This document shows positions 15,058-54,050 of a DNA stretch of 64,000 nucleotides, in pieces. The notes beneath the pieces are model-generated. The model was not told the origin of the DNA. It saw only the letters and a program-made list of their open reading frames with translations, and searched no databases. The stretch's first letter is position 1. Each line of letters starts with the position of its first letter. Both the position numbers and the translations under genes were made by a program. The stretch lies in assembly GCF_056746865.1 (NCBI RefSeq), contig NZ_CM163382.1; one strand, given 5' to 3'.

Positions 15058-18000
15058 ATGAAGTTTTTACCCTATATTTTTCTTCTCTGTTGTGGTCTTT
15101 GGTCGACCATAAGTTTCGCAGACGAAGATTACATCGAATATCGTGGCATCAGTAGTAACAACCGTGTCACACTTGATCCACTACGTCTGAGCAACAAGGA
15201 ATTACGTTGGTTAGCGAGCAAGAAAAATCTTGTGATTGCAGTACACAAGTCCCAAACGGCTACGTTGTTGCATACCGATTCGCAGCAACGGGTTCGTGGT
15301 ATTAATGCTGATTATTTAAATCTGTTAAAAAGAGCGTTAAATATCAAATTAACACTCCGGGAATACGCCGATCATCAAAAAGCAATGGACGCGCTGGAAG
15401 AAGGTGAAGTCGATATAGTGTTATCACATTTAGTTGCTTCGCCGCCTCTTAATGATGACATTGCTGCAACCAAACCACTGATAATTACCTTTCCGGCGCT
15501 CGTCACCACCCTTCACGATTCAATGCGACCGCTTACCTCATCAAAACCAGTAAATATTGCTCGAGTAGCAAATTATCCCCCTGACGAGGTAATTCATCAA
15601 TCATTTCCAAAAGCAACAATTATCTCTTTTACAAATTTATATCAGGCATTAGCATCCGTCTCAGCCGGACAGAATGATTACTTTATTGGTAGTAACATCA
15701 TTACCAGCAGTATGATTTCCCGCTATTTCACTCACTCCTTAAATGTAGTGAAATATTATAACTCGCCGCGTCAATATAACTTTTTCTTAACCAGAAAAGA
15801 TTCAGTCGTTCTTAATGAAGTACTCAATCGGTTTGTTGATGCTTTAACAAATGAAGTTCGCTATGAAGTATCACAAAATTGGCTTGATACAGGAAACCTG
15901 GCCTTTCTGAACAAACCATTAGAACTGACTGAACATGAAAAACAGTGGATAAAGCAGCATCCCGATTTAAAGGTGCTGGAAAATCCTTACTCCCCTCCCT
16001 ATTCTATGACGGATGAAAATGGCTCGGTTCGGGGCGTTATGGGGGATATTCTTAATATTATTACCTTGCAAACAGGTTTAAATTTTTCTCCGATCACCGT
16101 TTCACACAATATCCATGCCGGAACACAGCTTAATCCCGGCGGATGGGATATATTACCTGGTGCTATTTATAGTGAAGATAGAGAAAATAATGTTTTATTT
16201 GCTGAAGCCTTCATAACAACGCCTTACGTTTTTGTCATGCAAAAAGCGCCTGACAGTGAACAAACATTAAAAAAAGGAATGAAAGTTGCCATTCCCTATT
16301 ATTATGAGCTTCATTCGCAATTAAAAGAGATGTATCCGGAGGTAGAGTGGATAAAAGTCGATAACGCCAGCGCTGCATTTCACAAGGTCAAGGAAGGTGA
16401 ACTTGATGCTCTGGTCGCGACACAGTTAAATTCGCGTTACATGATCGACCATTACTATCCTAATGAACTTTATCATTTTCTTATTCCCGGCGTTCAGAAT
16501 GCATCACTTTCGTTCGCTTTTCCTCGCGGAGAACCGGAACTTAAGGATATTATTAATAAAGCACTGAATGCAATTCCCCCAAGCGAAGTTCTGCGCCTGA
16601 CGGAAAAATGGATTAAAATGCCCAATGTGACCATTGACACATGGGATCTCTATAGCGAGCAGTTTTATATTGTTACGACATTATCCGTTTTATTAGTTGG
16701 CAGTAGCCTTTTATGGGGATTCTACCTGTTACGCTCAGTTCGTCGTCGTAAAGTCATTCAGGGTGATTTAGAAAACCAAATATCATTCCGGAAAGCACTC
16801 TCGACTCCTTACCGAATCCAACTTATGTCGTAAACTGGCAAGGTAATGTCATTAGTCACAATAGTGCATTTGAACATTATTTCACTGCTGATTACTACAA
16901 AAATGCAATGTTGCCATTAGAAAACAGTGAATCACCCTTTAAAGATGTTTTTTCTAATACGCATGAAGTCACAGCAGAGACGAAAGAAAATCGAACAATA
17001 TACACACAGGTATTTGAAATTGATAATGGCATCGAGAAAAGATGCATTAATCACTGGCATACATTATGCAATCTGCCAGCCAGCGATCATGCTGTTTATA
17101 TTTGTGGTTGGCAAGATATTACCGAGACGCGTGATTTAATTCATGCTCTCGAAGTAGAGAGAAATAAAGCGATCAATGCAACTGTCGCAAAAAGTCAGTT
17201 TCTGGCAACAATGAGTCACGAAATAAGAACACCAATAAGCTCCATTATGGGCTTCCTGGAACTTCTGTCGGGTTCTGGTCTTAGCAAGGAACAACGGGTG
17301 GAGGCGATTTCACTTGCCTACGCCACCGGACAATCACTCCTCGGCTTAATTGGTGAAATCCTTGATGTCGACAAAATTGAATCGGGTAACTATCAACTTC
17401 AACCACAATGGGTCGATATCCCTACTTTAGTCCAGAACACTTGTCACTCTTTCGGTGCGATTGCTGCAAGCAAATCCATCGCATTAAGTTGCAGCAGTAC
17501 GTTTCCTGAACATTACCTGGTTAAGATCGACCCTCAGGCGTTTAAGCAGGTCTTATCTAATTTACTGAGCAATGCTCTCAAATTTACCACCGAGGGGGCA
17601 GTGAAAATTACGACCTCCCTGGTTAACATTGATGACAACCACGCTGTAATCAAAATGACGATTATGGATTCTGGAAGTGGATTATCACAGGAAGAACAAC
17701 AACAACTGTTTAAACGCTATAGCCAAACAAGTGCAGGTCGTCAGCAAACAGGTTCTGGTTTAGGCTTAATGATCTGCAAAGAATTAATTAAAAACATGCA
17801 GGGTGATTTGTCATTAGAAAGTCATCCAGGCATAGGAACGACATTTACGATCACAATCCCGGTAGAAATTACCCAACAAGTGGCGACTGTCGAGGCAAAA
17901 GCAGAACAACCCATGACACTCCCTGAAAAGTTGAGCATATTAATCGCGGATGATCATCCGACCAACAGGCTATTACTCAAACGCCAGCTAAACCTATTAG

Positions 18001-49297: not shown

Positions 49298-50713
49298 TTA
49301 CTGCTGATTTTCGCGTTCAGCAATAAAAGCCAGCGCTTTGTTGATACGCTCGATACTGCGGGTCTTACCGATTGCGTGAACGGTAACATCCAGCGCCGGA
49401 GACTGCCCCGCACCGGTAACGGCGACACGCAGCGGCATACCAACTTTACCCATACCCACTTCCAGCTCATCCGCCGTCGCCTGAATAGCGTGATGAACGT
49501 TTTCAGCTGTCCAGTCAGTAATCGCGGCCAGTTTGTCACGAACCACTTCCAGCGGCTGACGCGCTACCGGACGCAGATGTTTTTTCGCGGCGTCGGCATC
49601 GAACTCAGCAAAATCTTCGTAGAAATAACGGCAGCTCTGTGCCATCTCTTTCAGCGTCTTGCAGCGTTCACCCAGTAGTTTCACCAGATCAGCCAGCTGC
49701 GGGCCGTTACGGGTATCGATATTTTCCTGCTCAATGTGCCACTGTAAGTGAGTAGCAACATACTCCGGCGGTAGCGCGTTAATGTAGTGATGGTTCAGCC
49801 ATAGCAGCTTGTCGGTGTTGAACGCACTGGCAGATTTGCTGACGGCATTCAGGGTGAAGTATTTGATCATCTCTTCACGAGTGAAGATTTCCTGATCGCC
49901 GTGGGACCAGCCCAGACGCACCAGATAGTTCAGCAGTGCTTCTGGCAGATAACCATCATCACGATACTGCATTACGCTGACCGCCCCGTGACGTTTGGAC
50001 AGTTTTTTACCGTCATCGCCGTTGATCATAGAAACGTGCGCGTAAACCGGTACCGGCGCTTTCAGTGCTTTAAGAATGTTGATCTGGCGTGGCGTGTTGT
50101 TGATATGGTCTTCGCCACGGATAACGTGGGTGATTTCCATATCCCAGTCATCGACAACCACACAGAAGTTATAGGTTGGAGAACCATCGGTACGACGGAT
50201 AATCAGATCATCCAGCTCCTGGTTGCTGAATTCGATCGGACCACGGATCTGATCGTCAAAAACAACAGAACCTTCCTGCGGGTTAGCAAAACGTACAACA
50301 CACGGTTCATCATCAGCATGATGCTCATGGCTGTGGCGGCAGCGACCGTCATAACGCGGCTTCTCACCTTTCGCCATTTGCTCTTCGCGCAGCGCTTCCA
50401 GGCGCTCTTTAGAGCAATAGCATTTATAAGCTGTGCCCTCTTCCAGCATCTGATCGATCACCGCGTTGTAGCGATCAAAACGTTTGGTCTGGTAGTACGG
50501 ACCTTCATCCCACTCCAGGTTCAGCCAGTTCATGCCATCCATAATGGCTTCGATAGCTTCCGGCGTGGAACGCTCAAGATCGGTGTCTTCAATACGCAGC
50601 ACGAACTCACCGCCGTGGTTACGTGCAAAAAGCCAGGAGTAAAGAGCAGTACGCGCGCCGCCAACGTGCAGATAGCCTGTTGGGCTTGGCGCGAAGCGAG
50701 TTTTGATTTTCAT
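49298..50713 (-). CDS. gltX: Glutamyl-tRNA synthetase
   Basis: 471-aa class I aaRS ORF with [12 protein letters not shown] (HIGH-type) and KLSKRHG (KMSKS-type) motifs. Confidence 0.95.
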
Positions 50714-50926
50714 GAAATGGCCTTACGTTTAGAAAGATGCCGACAACCGGCAAATCCTGGAAAAATTGAGTGGGCGATATTCTATCACTCCCGCCTGATT
50801 CCTCAATGTAGTTCGGGTTGCAACCTTACGCATTATTGTTTTCGTTGACAAATTGCGCAACACGGTCTGTTTTGCGATCATCTTGCTTAAATTTACGACG
50901 AACGAACAATTTCTTTAGAAAATGCG

Positions 50927-50954
50927 TTGACTCATTTTGAACTCTCCCTATAAT
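50927..50954 (+). promoter_or_regulatory. Sigma-70 promoter of the valU-valX-valY-lysV tRNA operon
   Basis: TTGACT (50927-50932), 16-bp spacer, TATAAT (50949-50954), 17 bp upstream of the first tRNA. Confidence 0.7.
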
Positions 50955-50971
50955 GCGACTCCACACAGCGG

Positions 50972-51047
50972 GGGTGATTAGCTCAGCTGGGAGAGCACCT
51001 CCCTTACAAGGAGGGGGTCGGCGGTTCGATCCCGTCATCACCCACCA
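50972..51047 (+). tRNA. valU: tRNA-Val (UAC)
   Basis: GGGTGATTAGCTCAGCTGGGAGAGCACCTCCCTTACAAGGAGGGGGTCGGCGGTTCGATCCCGTCATCACCCACCA. Confidence 0.9.
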
Positions 51048-51091
51048 ACTACTTTATGTAGTCTCCGCCGTGTAGCAAGAAATTGAGAAGT

Positions 51092-51167
51092 GGGTGATTA
51101 GCTCAGCTGGGAGAGCACCTCCCTTACAAGGAGGGGGTCGGCGGTTCGATCCCGTCATCACCCACCA
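51092..51167 (+). tRNA. valX: tRNA-Val (UAC)
   Basis: Identical second copy. Confidence 0.9.
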
Positions 51168-51213
51168 CTTTCTCGCCAGCTAAATTTCTTGTAAAAATGT
51201 GAAGTACCGAAGT

Positions 51214-51289
51214 GGGTGATTAGCTCAGCTGGGAGAGCACCTCCCTTACAAGGAGGGGGTCGGCGGTTCGATCCCGTCATCACCCACCA
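51214..51289 (+). tRNA. valY: tRNA-Val (UAC)
   Basis: Identical third copy. Confidence 0.9.
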
Positions 51290-51293
51290 CTTC

Positions 51294-51369
51294 GGGTCGT
51301 TAGCTCAGTTGGTAGAGCAGTTGACTTTTAATCAATTGGTCGCAGGTTCGAATCCTGCACGACCCACCA
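51294..51369 (+). tRNA. lysV: tRNA-Lys (UUU)
   Basis: GGGTCGTTAGCTCAGTTGGTAGAGCAGTTGACTTTTAATCAATTGGTCGCAGGTTCGAATCCTGCACGACCCACCA. Confidence 0.9.
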
Positions 51370-51374
51370 ATGTA

Positions 51375-51400
51375 AAAAAGCGCCCTAAAGGCGCTTTTTT
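51375..51400 (+). terminator. Rho-independent terminator of the tRNA operon
   Basis: AAAAAAGCGCC-ctaaa-GGCGCTTTTTT. Confidence 0.75.
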
Positions 51401-51488
51401 GCTATATGCGGTTTGTAAGATTGATTTTTCTTCTCAAGTTCCTTGTTCTTCTGCCGATATTACCTCGTACAGTGACGAGGACTGAACA

Positions 51489-51830
51489 ATGGCCACTATC
51501 TCTCCAACTTCAATTCCTTCCATACAAACACAGAGTAGTAACAGGGCATCAGAAGGTAGCGATGTTGCTTCACAAATTGCGCGGATAAGTCAGCAAATCA
51601 TCAAACTCACTCAACAAATTAAAGAGATTGCAGACACTAGCGGCAGTGCTGAAGACAAGCAAAAACAGGCCGAATTGATTCAGCAGCAAATCACCCTACT
51701 GGAAACACAACTGGCGCAGTTGCAAAGACAGCAGGCAGAAAAAGCGCAGGAGAAAGAGCAGCGTTTGTCTCTGAATGCATCCCTTCCAAATCCTGTTGAA
51801 AAAACGACTCAGATCGATATCTATATCTGA
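51489..51830 (+). CDS. Hypothetical 113-aa coiled-coil protein (possibly FlxA-like); absent from K-12 at this position
   Basis: ORF with GAGGA Shine-Dalgarno 9 bp upstream; Ser/Thr-rich N-terminus then Q/E/K-rich heptad-like segment ([15 protein letters not shown]...[22 protein letters not shown]); overlaps the yfeR 3' end by 10 bp. Confidence 0.5.
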
Positions 51831-52747
51831 TACAGCGGATCCCCTTCCCGCCCAGCCATTAGAGCACGGCCCTGGCCTCGTACCACGTCCCATAACGCTT
51901 GTGCGGCGGTGGAAAGTGAACGGTTCTTCCTGCGCACCAGCATCAACTGGCGTTCCACCACCGGCGTAATGCGCTTTACCACCAGCGGGCTACCTTCAGG
52001 TAACGGCAGCGCCAGTGCGGGAAGAATACTAATGCCGATGCCTGCGGCTACCATCGGGAACAGCGTCGCCGGATGTCCAATCTCCTGCACAATATTCGCC
52101 TGAATACCATTGCGCGCCAGCGCTGCGTCAATCAGCGGTCGGCTGCCTGACGCGTAATCCTGCAACACCAATTTCGCTCCCTGTAATGCCTGCCAGGGTA
52201 CATAATCTTCCGCGGCCAAAGCGCTATCGCGATGGCAAAGCAAGAAGAAAGGCTCGGAAAGAATCGCTTCACATTGCAGATCGCCCACTGGGCCTGGATC
52301 GATGACGATGCCAAAATCGACATCTCCCTGGCGAATACTTTCCATCACCCACTGCTGCGGACGATCGTGCAGGATAAACTGAATATCTGGATAGCGGCGA
52401 TGGCTTTCAGCAATGCATTGCGGAATAAGATGCGCGGAAATGGTCTGGCTGGCAGCGACCCGAACTTTTCCGCTCAGTTGTTGCCCCATACGCCCGGTAT
52501 CGCGCAACGTGCTGTTAAGTTCATCCAGCAGTCGCTCAAGACGCAAAGCCAACTGCTGCCCTGCATCTGTAAGCACCACTTCACGCGTGGTTCTGTCCAG
52601 CAGGCGAACACCAGTATGATTTTCCAGCTCCTTCACACTGTGACTTACTGCCGACTGACTCAGGCCGATACGCTCTCCTGCACGACTAAAACTTTTCTCC
52701 TGCGCTACTGTGACGAAAACCTTTAATTGTTTTAAAGAATAATTCAT
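51821..52747 (-). CDS. yfeR: LysR-family transcriptional regulator YfeR
   Basis: 308-aa ORF with N-terminal LysR HTH ([42 protein letters not shown]); divergent from yfeH. Confidence 0.85.
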
Positions 52748-52836
52748 CTGTTTTATTCATGAATGGATGCAATAAATCAATTTTATTTCTCAAACTGGAA
52801 GAAGCACAATAGAACCATCGATCATCTGGAGTCTTT

Positions 52837-53835
52837 ATGAAACTTTTTCGTATCCTCGATCCTTTCACCTTAACCCTGATCACGGTGGTGTTGCTGGCCT
52901 CTTTCTTTCCGGCCAGAGGCGATTTCGTCCCCTTCTTTGAAAATCTGACCACTGCAGCTATTGCCCTGCTGTTCTTTATGCACGGCGCGAAGTTGTCGCG
53001 TGAGGCGATTATTGCTGGCGGTGGGCACTGGCGACTGCATTTGTGGGTAATGTGCAGCACCTTCGTATTGTTTCCGATTCTGGGCGTGCTGTTTGCCTGG
53101 TGGAAACCGGTAAATGTCGACCCGATGCTCTACTCCGGTTTTCTCTACTTGTGCATTCTCCCCGCTACCGTGCAGTCTGCAATCGCCTTTACTTCAATGG
53201 CGGGCGGTAACGTCGCGGCAGCGGTTTGTTCTGCGTCAGCATCCAGCCTGTTGGGGATTTTCCTTTCACCATTGCTGGTTGGTCTGGTGATGAATGTTCA
53301 CGGTGCAGGGGGCAGCCTTGAGCAGGTCGGTAAAATTATGCTGCAACTGCTGCTGCCGTTTGTGTTGGGGCATCTTTCCCGGCCGTGGATTGGTGACTGG
53401 GTGTCGCGCAATAAAAAATGGATTGCGAAAACTGACCAGACGTCCATTCTGTTGGTGGTTTATACAGCGTTCAGCGAAGCCGTCGTTAATGGTATCTGGC
53501 ATAAAGTTGGCTGGGGATCATTGCTGTTTATCGTGGTGGTCAGCTGCGTTCTTCTGGCTATCGTGATCGTAGTTAACGTCTTTATGGCACGCCGACTGGG
53601 CTTCAATAAGGCAGATGAAATTACTATCGTCTTTTGTGGTTCGAAAAAGAGTCTGGCAAATGGCATCCCGATGGCAAACATTCTTTTCCCCACATCGGTG
53701 ATCGGTATGATGGTGCTGCCTCTGATGATTTTCCATCAGATCCAATTGATGGTCTGTGCGGTGCTGGCGCGTCGATACAAACACCAGACCGAACAGTTAC
53801 AGGCGCAGCAGGAAAGCCGCGCCAATAAAGCTTAA
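52837..53835 (+). CDS. yfeH: Putative bile acid:sodium symporter family transporter YfeH
   Basis: 332-aa polytopic membrane ORF. Confidence 0.85.
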   Translation: MKLFRILDPFTLTLITVVLLASFFPARGDFVPFFENLTTAAIALLFFMHGAKLSREAIIAGGGHWRLHLWVMCSTFVLFPILGVLFAWWKPVNVDPMLYSGFLYLCILPATVQSAIAFTSMAGGNVAAAVCSASASSLLGIFLSPLLVGLVMNVHGAGGSLEQVGKIMLQLLLPFVLGHLSRPWIGDWVSRNKKWIAKTDQTSILLVVYTAFSEAVVNGIWHKVGWGSLLFIVVVSCVLLAIVIVVNVFMARRLGFNKADEITIVFCGSKKSLANGIPMANILFPTSVIGMMVLPLMIFHQIQLMVCAVLARRYKHQTEQLQAQQESRANKA

Positions 53836-54050
53836 AGAGGACGCTTCAGGGGCTGGACCAGTTGCGTCAGCCCCTCAGTTTTAATCAGCAGCGTGATTTG
53901 CATTAGCTCACCGAGCTTCCCTGCCGGGAACTCATCTTTGCGGGCAAACCACAGAAGATACTCCTCCGGCAGGTCGATTAAGCGACGCCCTTTGTATTTG
54001 CCAAACGGCATTATCGTATTGGCTATTTCAATCAGCTGCTCTTTTTCCAT
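53832..54050 (-). CDS. ypeB: DUF3820-family small protein YpeB
   Basis: 72-aa ORF from MEKEQLIEIANTIMPFGKYKGRRLIDLPEEYL immediately downstream of ligA. Confidence 0.7.
   Translation of the reverse strand: MEKEQLIEIANTIMPFGKYKGRRLIDLPEEYLLWFARKDEFPAGKLGELMQITLLIKTEGLTQLVQPLKRPL

What the first reader, a model, noticed from the sequence alone, without database searches (positions are those of the whole stretch)
51370..51830. Small coiled-coil ORF where K-12 carries xapR-xapB-xapA-yfeN
Between lysV and the 3' end of yfeR, K-12 has the xanthosine genes plus yfeN; here there is only ~450 bp containing one 113-codon ORF with a good Shine-Dalgarno. Its product has a Ser/Thr-rich head and a Q/E/K-rich heptad-like tail reminiscent of FlxA-like proteins. 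It abuts a tRNA gene, a common insertion point, and overlaps the yfeR stop by 10 bp. Function unknown.
Basis: partly seen in the sequence, partly recalled or inferred. Interest (0 to 1): 0.5.

Follow-up and report, generated by a model that had tools for sequence, protein, structure and literature searches.

The report
FlxA-family flagellar-regulon small gene
The small ORF is a real, already-annotated gene for a FlxA-family helical-hairpin protein with its own conserved flagellar sigma-28 promoter, and it is an old resident of this locus across enterobacteria rather than an insertion, so it is ordinary apart from the family's still-unknown function.

Summary
ORF 51489-51830 (113 aa, SD GAGGA) lies in the 451-bp lysV-yfeR gap and overlaps the yfeR stop by 10 bp. 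K-12 MG1655 carries xapR-xapB-xapA-yfeN there. The product matches Pfam FlxA (PF14282) at 55.7 bits (cut-off 26.3). RefSeq already calls it "FlxA-like family protein", and O157 Sakai names it ECs_3279 "flxA".

It is present in 1316 of 5426 complete E. coli genomes. The same gene sits at the gltX-tRNA locus in Pseudocitrobacter, Kluyvera, Citrobacter, Enterobacter, Silvania and Cedecea, under purifying selection between genera (dN/dS 0.02-0.18). There is no integrase and there are no att repeats, so it is ancestral at family level, not a tRNA-site insertion.

It is conserved at -53 to -58 in all 24 orthologous loci checked, at -50 in all 52 scored prophage copies, and in 3 of 4 distant homologues in unrelated contexts.

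The best reading is a dispensable class-3 flagellar-regulon gene. Its protein has a disordered Ser/Thr-rich head and a helical hairpin, and may be exported by the flagellar type III system. Export is inferred only. Novelty and interest are low.

The parts
51294..51369 (+). lysV, tRNA-Lys(UUU), last gene of the valU-valX-valY-lysV tRNA operon (context)
   Evidence: ARAGORN; Rfam tRNA 79.2 bits
51372..51402 (.). Bidirectional intrinsic terminator (A-run, GCGCC-CUAAA-GGCGC, T-run) that ends the tRNA operon upstream of the ORF
   Evidence: Fold dG -19.1 kcal/mol, z -5.75, 0 of 200 shuffles as good. The sequence is shared with the K-12 haplotype.
51416..51819 (.). Haplotype-specific segment: 404 bp here, replaced by about 4.4 kb (xapR-xapB-xapA-yfeN) in K-12-type genomes
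   Evidence: Alignment of window, O157 and L37. The segment is present once, on the chromosome, in 1316 of 5426 complete E. coli genomes.
51434..51441 (+). Sigma-28 (FliA) promoter -35 element, TCAAGTTC
   Evidence: Part of a 28-nt PWM match of 18.5 bits, second best of about 128,000 positions in the window. The PWM was built from FliA ChIP-seq sites in PMC4183435 Table 2. The element is conserved in all orthologues.
51453..51460 (+). Sigma-28 promoter -10 element, GCCGATAT, after an 11-nt spacer. The predicted transcription start is near 51467 (inferred from the usual sigma-28 geometry, recalled from memory).
   Evidence: The spacer sequence varies freely between genera while both elements are kept.
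51463..51480 (+). Inverted repeat CCTCGT-ACAGTG-ACGAGG, whose 3' arm covers the Shine-Dalgarno. The 5' arm probably lies upstream of the sigma-28 start. Status uncertain.
   Evidence: dG -8.6 kcal/mol, z -2.4. It is not supported as a conserved structure by RNAalifold.
51477..51481 (+). Shine-Dalgarno GAGGA, 7 nt before the ATG
   Evidence: Read directly from the sequence
51489..51830 (+). FlxA-family gene (113 aa). The product has a disordered Ser/Thr-rich head (residues 1-21), helix 22-47, turn 48-53, helix 54-97, and a disordered tail ending in IDIYI.
   Evidence: ORF; Pfam PF14282; RefSeq WP_000201400.1; AlphaFold model with core pLDDT about 90; dN/dS 0.02-0.18 between genera
51821..52747 (-). 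yfeR (LysR-family regulator), convergent with the ORF and overlapping it by 10 bp
   Evidence: The overlap is conserved in other genera.
51669..51684 (-). Weak terminator-like hairpin on the yfeR strand, inside the FlxA-like ORF. It is a possible yfeR terminator, which would make the two mRNAs complementary over about 150 nt.
   Evidence: Consensus scan only. The number of such sites equals the shuffle expectation, so this is weak.

Best explanation
The ORF is a genuine gene of the FlxA family (Pfam PF14282). It is a chromosomal paralogue of the Qin-prophage flxA of K-12.

It is a separate transcription unit. It lies after the strong terminator of the valU-lysV tRNA operon and has its own sigma-28 (FliA) promoter. 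It should therefore be transcribed as a late (class 3) flagellar-regulon gene, only when basal bodies and hooks are complete and FlgM has been exported.

The product is a 113-aa acidic protein with a disordered, uncharged Ser/Thr-rich N-terminus, an antiparallel helical hairpin and a conserved hydrophobic C-terminal motif.

The most likely mode of action is inferred, not shown. The protein would be exported through the flagellar type III apparatus as a late substrate, like FlgM, FlgK, FlgL, FliD and FliC. It would have an accessory role that is dispensable for motility.

In E. coli the gene is one of two alternative contents of the lysV-yfeR interval. It is present in 24% of complete genomes, and the others carry xapRBA-yfeN. 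At the level of the Enterobacteriaceae it is the ancestral occupant of the locus.
For: SHOWN - family membership. Pfam FlxA 55.7 bits against a 26.3 cut-off. 45% identity to K-12 FlxA with a shared IDIY[IV] C-terminus. Same PHROG. RefSeq name.

SHOWN - a real gene. dN/dS is 0.02-0.18 between genera, and the hairpin core is the most constrained part at 0.10.

SHOWN - separate unit. Terminator dG -19.1, z -5.75.

SHOWN AT SEQUENCE LEVEL - sigma-28 promoter. The match is 18.5 bits, second best in the window and comparable to the validated aer, trg, ycgR and flgKL sites. Sites of at least 9.7 bits occur at only 15 of about 128,000 positions. A site at -53 to -58 is present in all 24 orthologous loci examined, with a freely varying spacer. 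It is also present at -50 in all 52 scored prophage copies, and at -57 or -67 in 3 of 4 distant homologues in unrelated neighbourhoods.

PUBLISHED - the paralogue is FliA-dependent. K-12 flxA falls from 280 to 2 in a fliA deletion and is bound by FliA (PMC4183435). It changes -28-fold in a second study (PMC1935009).

INFERENCE - export. Residues 1-21 are predicted disordered. The head is compositionally conserved and has no charged residue until R19 in the window protein. K-12 FlxA rose in a culture exoproteome together with FlgK, FliD, FliC, FlgL and FlgM and has no signal peptide (PMC6391000). flxA showed opposite mRNA and protein changes at 42 C, where flagellar secretion fails (PMC6551532).

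SHOWN - ancestry. The same locus is occupied in Pseudocitrobacter, Kluyvera, Citrobacter, Enterobacter, Silvania and Cedecea. There are no att repeats. No copy of this orthologue was found in viral contigs.
Against: No experiment on this gene was available, so FliA dependence rests on a sequence motif and on the paralogue.

The export evidence is weak. The exoproteome also contained cytoplasmic proteins such as CheY. The iScience paper does not state the direction of the flxA mismatch. There is no reliable predictor of flagellar export signals.

Within E. coli the gene looks dispensable. It is absent from 76% of genomes. It is occasionally a pseudogene, through an internal stop, an IS1203 insertion or decayed remnants. 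dN/dS between E. coli alleles is about 0.6 on few changes. The O157 allele carries D110G in the conserved C-terminal motif. Many alleles of the ~97%-identity group have ACCGATAT instead of GCCGATAT in the -10 element.

Structure searches give only generic helical hairpins.
Confidence: 0.72

Rival explanations
1. Same gene and same sigma-28 control, but the protein stays in the cytoplasm. It would act as a small helical binding partner of a late flagellar component, in the manner of the chaperones and regulators FlgN, FliT and FliS, or of the stalk protein FliJ, rather than being exported.
For: The protein is small, acidic and helical, like flagellar export chaperones (composition read; model). 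CdsO, the FliJ counterpart of Chlamydia, appears among the non-significant hairpin matches. The conserved C-terminal motif could be a docking peptide.
Against: About 20 residues at the N-terminus are disordered and conserved in composition only, which is unusual for chaperones. The K-12 paralogue was detected extracellularly together with late substrates. No sequence or significant fold match to any chaperone family was found.
Confidence: 0.3
2. In E. coli the ORF is a decaying, effectively functionless leftover. It would be kept in some lineages by chance, and its promoter and coding capacity would be eroding.
For: It is absent from 76% of complete genomes. Pseudogene alleles exist. dN/dS between E. 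coli alleles is about 0.5-0.6, and the O157 allele has D110G in the conserved motif. The -10 variant ACCGATAT is common. The C-terminal G[VI]NxP[ST] motif of the wider family is degenerate in the Escherichia/Pseudocitrobacter clade.
Confidence: 0.15
3. The ORF is cargo of a mobile element, either a prophage moron like Qin flxA or a small island, that integrated next to tRNA-Lys.
For: The tRNA gene is adjacent. The best-known family member is prophage-borne. The family has a PHROG. GC content is 44% against about 51% in the flanks. There are signs of horizontal exchange with Pseudocitrobacter.
Against: There is no integrase, no att-like repeat and no other cargo. The whole variable segment is 404 bp. 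Synteny is conserved in at least seven other genera, including a locus that lacks yfeR. 53 viral-contig hits are all other paralogues at 39-45% identity. The low GC follows from the Q/K/E/I-rich composition. The exchange looks like homologous replacement between conserved flanks.
Confidence: 0.04
4. The main function lies in the transcript, not the protein. Sigma-28-driven convergent transcription would run into yfeR and lower its expression by antisense pairing or polymerase collision when flagella are made.
For: The convergent 3' overlap has no terminator between the genes. The overlap is conserved in many genera.
Against: The protein sequence is under strong purifying selection. The gene persists with its sigma-28 promoter where yfeR is absent (Cedecea), where it is not adjacent (Silvania), and in prophages.
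Confidence: 0.05

Closest known systems
FlxA of E. coli K-12 (b1566, Qin cryptic prophage), founding member of Pfam PF14282
   Same: Same Pfam family and PHROG. 45% identity over the hairpin core, similar length (110 vs 113 aa), the same head-hairpin-tail layout and the same IDIY[IV] C-terminus. Both have a sigma-28 promoter about 50-55 nt upstream of the ATG and a short leader.
   Different: The location differs: a conserved chromosomal locus (gltX-tRNA-yfeR) rather than a lambdoid prophage. The -35 element is TCAAG rather than TAAAG. FliA dependence has been shown for flxA (PMC4183435, PMC1935009) but not for this gene. The two occur in different subsets of E. coli, 1316 and 1200 of 5426 genomes.
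FlgM and the other late flagellar type III export substrates (FlgK, FlgL, FliD, FliC)
   Same: Class-3-type sigma-28 promoter, small size, no Sec signal, and a disordered Ser/Thr-rich uncharged N-terminus. The paralogue FlxA co-varies with them in a culture supernatant.
   Different: There is no sequence homology. FlgM binds sigma-28 and is largely unfolded, whereas this protein has a confident helical hairpin. Export has not been demonstrated for any FlxA-family protein.
FliJ / CdsO-type stalk proteins and the flagellar chaperones FlgN, FliT and FliS
   Same: Small helical coiled-coil proteins linked to flagellar or injectisome type III secretion. CdsO appears among the fold matches.
Replacement-type variable loci beside tRNA genes in E. 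coli (alternative gene sets between conserved flanks)
   Same: Two alternative contents lie between identical flanks (the lysV terminator and the yfeR stop). They segregate in the species at 24% versus 76%.
   Different: There is no integrase or att machinery. Both alternatives have their nearest relatives in Pseudocitrobacter, which points to homologous replacement rather than site-specific insertion.

Membership tests
FlxA-like family (Pfam PF14282) | Score to the family HMM above the curated gathering threshold | tested here: met
   55.7 bits against 26.3, E 5.9e-15, covering profile positions 4-82 of 101
FlxA-like family (Pfam PF14282) | Significant pairwise similarity to the founding member, E. 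coli K-12 FlxA | tested here: met
   BLASTP 45% identity over 74 aa, E 3e-13. Shared C-terminal IDIY[IV].
FlxA-like family (Pfam PF14282) | Stand-alone protein of about 100-125 aa with an S/T/G-rich head, a helical core and a hydrophobic C-terminal motif | tested here: met
   Alignment A2. The 252 family clusters are nearly all 100-125 aa. Distant members keep the layout. AlphaFold model.
FlxA-like family (Pfam PF14282) | Dispensable for flagellar assembly and motility, as reported for K-12 flxA (Ide and Kutsukake 1997, as cited in PMC4183435 and PMC6551532) | not testable with these tools
   Indirect only: natural absence from 76% of E. coli genomes and natural pseudogenes
Sigma-28 (FliA) regulon, class 3 flagellar genes | Promoter matching TAAAGTTT-N11-GCCGATAA at a suitable distance from the gene | tested here: met
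   TCAAGTTC-N11-GCCGATAT at 51434-51461, 18.5 bits, rank 2 of about 128,000 positions
Sigma-28 (FliA) regulon, class 3 flagellar genes | Promoter conserved in orthologues (phylogenetic footprint) | tested here: met
   24 of 24 orthologous loci have their best site at -53 to -58 with a variable spacer. 52 of 52 scored prophage paralogues have it at -50. 3 of 4 distant homologues have it.
Sigma-28 (FliA) regulon, class 3 flagellar genes | Transcription lost in a fliA mutant, or FliA-RNA polymerase binding in vivo | not testable with these tools
Late substrates of the flagellar type III export apparatus | Disordered N-terminal export signal and no Sec/Tat signal | tested here: inconclusive
   Residues 1-21 have pLDDT below 50, and the head is Ser/Thr-rich with no charged residue until R19. 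No validated predictor was available.
Late substrates of the flagellar type III export apparatus | Presence in the culture supernatant that depends on the export gate and on hook completion | not testable with these tools
   Only correlative data for K-12 FlxA (PMC6391000; PMC6551532)
tRNA-linked integrative island or prophage | Integrase gene and direct repeats derived from the 3' end of the tRNA | tested here: not met
   No such repeats in 50900-52000. The variable segment is 404 bp and holds only this ORF.
tRNA-linked integrative island or prophage | Patchy presence without conserved synteny in related genera | tested here: not met
   The same position is occupied in Pseudocitrobacter, Kluyvera, Citrobacter, Enterobacter, Silvania and Cedecea

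The most novel reading that the evidence does not exclude
FlxA-family proteins may be an overlooked class of late flagellar type III export substrates, or flagellum-associated factors. On this reading they are encoded in the chromosomal backbone of many Enterobacteriaceae at the gltX-tRNA locus, always under a sigma-28 promoter wherever the gene sits, and were copied into lambdoid prophages. This would give a 1997 orphan of the FliA regulon an ancestral chromosomal home and a testable role, for example in filament-associated function, signalling to hosts or phages, or exclusion of flagellotropic phages.
Probability: 0.3. Interest if true: 0.5.

Novelty: already known. Interest (0 to 1): 0.22.

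Why it matters
The gene and its family assignment are already in public annotation, so the finding itself is ordinary.

What the follow-up adds is modest but usable. The best-studied E. coli strain lacks this chromosomal FlxA paralogue, so flagellar-regulon maps made in K-12 miss it. The sigma-28 promoter turns out to be a hallmark of the family, independent of genomic location. The chromosomal copy, not the prophage copy, looks like the ancestral one. That makes the long-unexplained FliA-dependent gene flxA easier to study, through conserved orthologues, natural knock-outs and a clear secretion test.

The locus is also a clean example of two alternative gene sets exchanged by homologous replacement between E. 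coli and Pseudocitrobacter.

Tried and rejected
- **PDB sequence search.** A profile search found only designed coiled coils.
- **NCBIfam.** Only weak coiled-coil noise.
- **PADLOC.** No defence family.
- **Rfam.** Nothing but the tRNAs in 50700-52000.
- **Leader hairpin.** The repeat that sequesters the Shine-Dalgarno (51463-51480) suggested a block on translation of read-through transcripts, like IS10 fold-back inhibition. It is decent in the window (z -2.4) but weak in other genera. RNAalifold found no consensus structure. I kept it only as a side note.
- **att-like repeats.** None found.
- **First single-sequence homology search.** It returned only 8 hits because of the word index. The profile search and the exhaustive search were needed.
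- **Literature searches.** A search for locus tags with match 'anywhere' returned unrelated papers. A search for 'FlxA-like' found no papers.
- **Neighbourhoods of distant family members.** None were flagellar, so gene context gives no functional clue beyond the promoter.

Full report
**1. What is in the sequence.**
Window 50700-53900 holds gltX (-, 49298-50713), three tRNA-Val(UAC) genes, tRNA-Lys(UUU) lysV at 51294-51369, a 113-codon ORF at 51489-51830 (+), yfeR (-, 51821-52747) and yfeH (+). The ORF has an ATG start and a GAGGA Shine-Dalgarno 7 nt upstream. Its last 10 bp overlap the last codons and stop of the convergent yfeR. Directly after lysV is a strong bidirectional terminator hairpin (dG -19.1 kcal/mol, z -5.75).

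**2. The K-12 comparison is correct.**
MG1655 has lysV-xapR-xapB-xapA-yfeN-yfeR, as does strain L37. Aligning the two arrangements shows shared sequence through the lysV terminator up to window position 51415, and again from 51820, one base before the yfeR stop codon. So 404 bp here replace about 4.4 kb in K-12. The 404-bp segment is present once, always on the chromosome, in 1316 of 5426 complete E. coli genomes. These include O157:H7 and E. coli B derivatives.

**3. Family.**
The product matches Pfam PF14282 (FlxA-like) at 55.7 bits against a gathering score of 26.3. It is 45% identical to K-12 FlxA over the core, E 3e-13, and falls in the same PHROG. RefSeq names it "FlxA-like family protein" (WP_000201400.1 in a 100% identical strain). 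The Sakai reference record calls it ECs_3279, gene "flxA".

An exhaustive HMM search of 1.84 billion cluster representatives finds only 252 clusters at E <= 1e-3. Nearly all are stand-alone proteins of 100-125 aa. Distant members keep the same layout: an M-[ST]-[ST]-I-S Ser/Gly-rich head, a helical core, and a tail ending in [IV]-[DN]-[IV]-Y-[IV].

**4. It is a real gene and an old resident of the locus.**
A scan of one genome per species, anchored on YfeR, gave 36 loci. I mapped the neighbouring genes by tblastn.
- An orthologue that overlaps the 3' end of yfeR convergently is present in Pseudocitrobacter (84-88% aa), Kluyvera (57-64%), a Pluralibacter MAG, several unnamed Enterobacteriaceae, and Citrobacter werkmanii/youngae-type genomes. 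In those Citrobacter genomes it coexists with xapA-xapB-xapR.
- In Silvania it lies on the lysV side of xapABR.
- Enterobacter asburiae has gltX-tRNAs-FlxA-like-yfeR-yfeH-ypeB-ligA.
- Cedecea colo has gltX-tRNAs-FlxA-like-ypeB-ligA with no yfeR or yfeH.
- Loci that carry yfeN next to yfeR lack the FlxA-like gene.
- Salmonella arizonae and diarizonae, and some Citrobacter, have only tRNA-fragment repeats there.

Pairwise dN/dS between genera is 0.02-0.18. By region it is 0.10 for the hairpin core, 0.29 for the head and 0.22 for the tail. There is no integrase and no tRNA-derived direct repeat. The 53 hits in viral contigs are all other paralogues at 39-45% identity. The reading 'inserted at a tRNA' is therefore rejected. 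At family level this gene is the ancestral occupant, and the K-12 state is the one in which it has been replaced.

**5.
I built a 28-nt weight matrix from the 25 strongest FliA ChIP-seq sites of Fitzgerald et al. 2014 (PMC4183435, Table 2). The site 51434-51461, TCAAGTTC-N11-GCCGATAT, scores 18.5 bits. That is second best of about 128,000 positions in the window and in the range of the validated aer, trg, ycgR and flgKL promoters. Only 15 positions in the window reach 9.7 bits.

In every one of the 24 orthologous loci, the best site in the 130 nt upstream lies at -53 to -58 from the ATG. Both elements are kept while the spacer varies freely. All 52 scored prophage copies have a site at -50. 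Three of four distant homologues, in unrelated non-flagellar neighbourhoods, have one at -57 or -67, scoring 12.9, 15.1 and 21.1 bits. A sigma-28 promoter is thus a hallmark of the family wherever the gene sits.

For the K-12 paralogue, FliA dependence is experimental. Expression falls from 280 to 2 in a fliA deletion and FliA binds the promoter. A second study reports a -28-fold change (PMC1935009).

**6. The protein.**
AlphaFold2 with the orthologue alignment gives a disordered head (residues 1-21, pLDDT below 50), helix 22-47, a turn, helix 54-97 (core pLDDT about 90) and a disordered tail. Searches of solved structures return only generic antiparallel hairpins, none significant.

**7. Mechanism.**
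Shown or strongly supported: the gene is a separate transcription unit with a conserved sigma-28 promoter. It is therefore expected to be expressed late in flagellar assembly.

Inferred: the protein is exported by the flagellar type III apparatus as a late substrate. The grounds are as follows.
- The head is disordered and Ser/Thr-rich, with no charged residue until R19, and is conserved in composition rather than sequence.
- There is no signal peptide.
- K-12 FlxA increased in a culture exoproteome together with FlgK, FliD, FliC, FlgL and FlgM (PMC6391000).
- At 42 C, where flagellar secretion fails, flxA showed opposite changes in mRNA and protein (PMC6551532). The paper does not state the direction.

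This evidence is weak, because cytoplasmic proteins were also present in that exoproteome. I put export at roughly one in three. A cytoplasmic partner or chaperone-like role is the main rival. An antisense effect on yfeR and a mobile-element origin are both unlikely.

**8. State in E. coli.**
The gene looks dispensable.
- It is absent from 76% of complete genomes.
- There are two allele groups: 216 genomes at >= 99% identity to the window, and 1098 at 95-99% (about 97% in the rows listed).
- dN/dS between alleles is about 0.6 on few changes.
- The O157 allele has D110G in the C-terminal motif, and many alleles of the ~97% group have ACCGATAT in the -10 element. That variant also occurs in strong FliA promoters such as ycgR and fliDST.
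- Occasional pseudogenes exist: Q43* in 23CRST031, an IS1203 insertion in CUVET18-789, and decayed remnants in HH97.

This fits the reported dispensability of flxA for motility.

**9. Verdict.**
The gene is already annotated. It is not an insertion but the older of two alternative contents of the locus. The useful additions are the conserved sigma-28 promoter and the cross-genus synteny, which make this a probable class-3 flagellar-regulon gene that K-12-based regulon maps cannot see. Novelty: already known. Interest: low.

Noticed in passing
window 4491-4518 (- strand): This is the best sigma-28 matrix hit in the whole window: 22.9 bits, TAAACTTT-N11-GTCGATAT. It lies 4 nt downstream of the stop of a LacY-family permease ORF (4522-5769, -), which looks like the sucrose permease CscB (from memory). 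It points towards argW, tRNA-Arg(CCT), at 4006-4080 (+), and no ORF of 80 aa or more lies downstream.
   Followed up: partly
window 51416-52747 compared with L006, L007, L008 (Pseudocitrobacter): There is a similarity gradient that suggests horizontal exchange of the lysV-yfeR interval between Escherichia and Pseudocitrobacter. Against MAG L007 the FlxA-like gene is 94.2% identical in nucleotides, yfeR 87.2% and yfeH 78.7%. YfeR is 94-96% identical to Pseudocitrobacter but 79% to Citrobacter and Salmonella, whereas YfeH is 88% against 91-92%. K-12-type YfeN, XapA and XapB are 96-97% identical to P. vendiensis, but XapA is only 89% identical to that of another Escherichia genome (L033). Both E. 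coli haplotypes therefore have their nearest relatives in Pseudocitrobacter.
   Followed up: partly
window 51463-51480: The inverted repeat CCTCGT/ACGAGG pairs an anti-Shine-Dalgarno stretch with the Shine-Dalgarno (dG -8.6, z -2.4). Its 5' arm probably lies upstream of the sigma-28 start. If so, it could silence translation only in read-through transcripts from the tRNA operon. Similar pairings in other genera are weak, and RNAalifold finds no consensus structure.
   Followed up: yes
L042 5300-6530 (E. coli HH97): This is a third state of the locus. It holds scrambled, partly duplicated and decayed remnants of the FlxA-like gene and its promoter, with long poly-T runs, plus an unrelated annotated hypothetical ORF. 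The -10 element is destroyed.
   Followed up: partly
L101 6445-7371 (O157:H7 Sakai): yfeR is annotated as a pseudogene (ECs_3280) in the Sakai reference record, while the overlapping FlxA-like gene ECs_3279 is intact.
   Followed up: no
L001 3921-4283 (strain 118UI); L036, L039, L026, L028 downstream of yfeR: The tRNA array itself varies. 118UI has Val-Lys-Val-Lys instead of Val-Val-Val-Lys. Salmonella arizonae and diarizonae and some Citrobacter carry tandem repeats of the lysV 3' end plus terminator in place of the FlxA-like gene. Several E. coli genomes have an 'RtT sRNA' annotation there.
   Followed up: no
window 17393-17420 (+): This 28-mer is identical to the weak intragenic FliA ChIP site inside evgS reported for K-12 (TCAACTTCAACCACAATGGGTCGATATC, FAT 2). 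It scores 10.2 bits.
   Followed up: no
L045, L046 (viral contigs) and P0105: There is a third FlxA paralogue in E. coli-type prophages, 38-39% identical to the window protein. It also has a sigma-28 site at -50, TAAAGATA-N11-GCCGATAG.
   Followed up: partly
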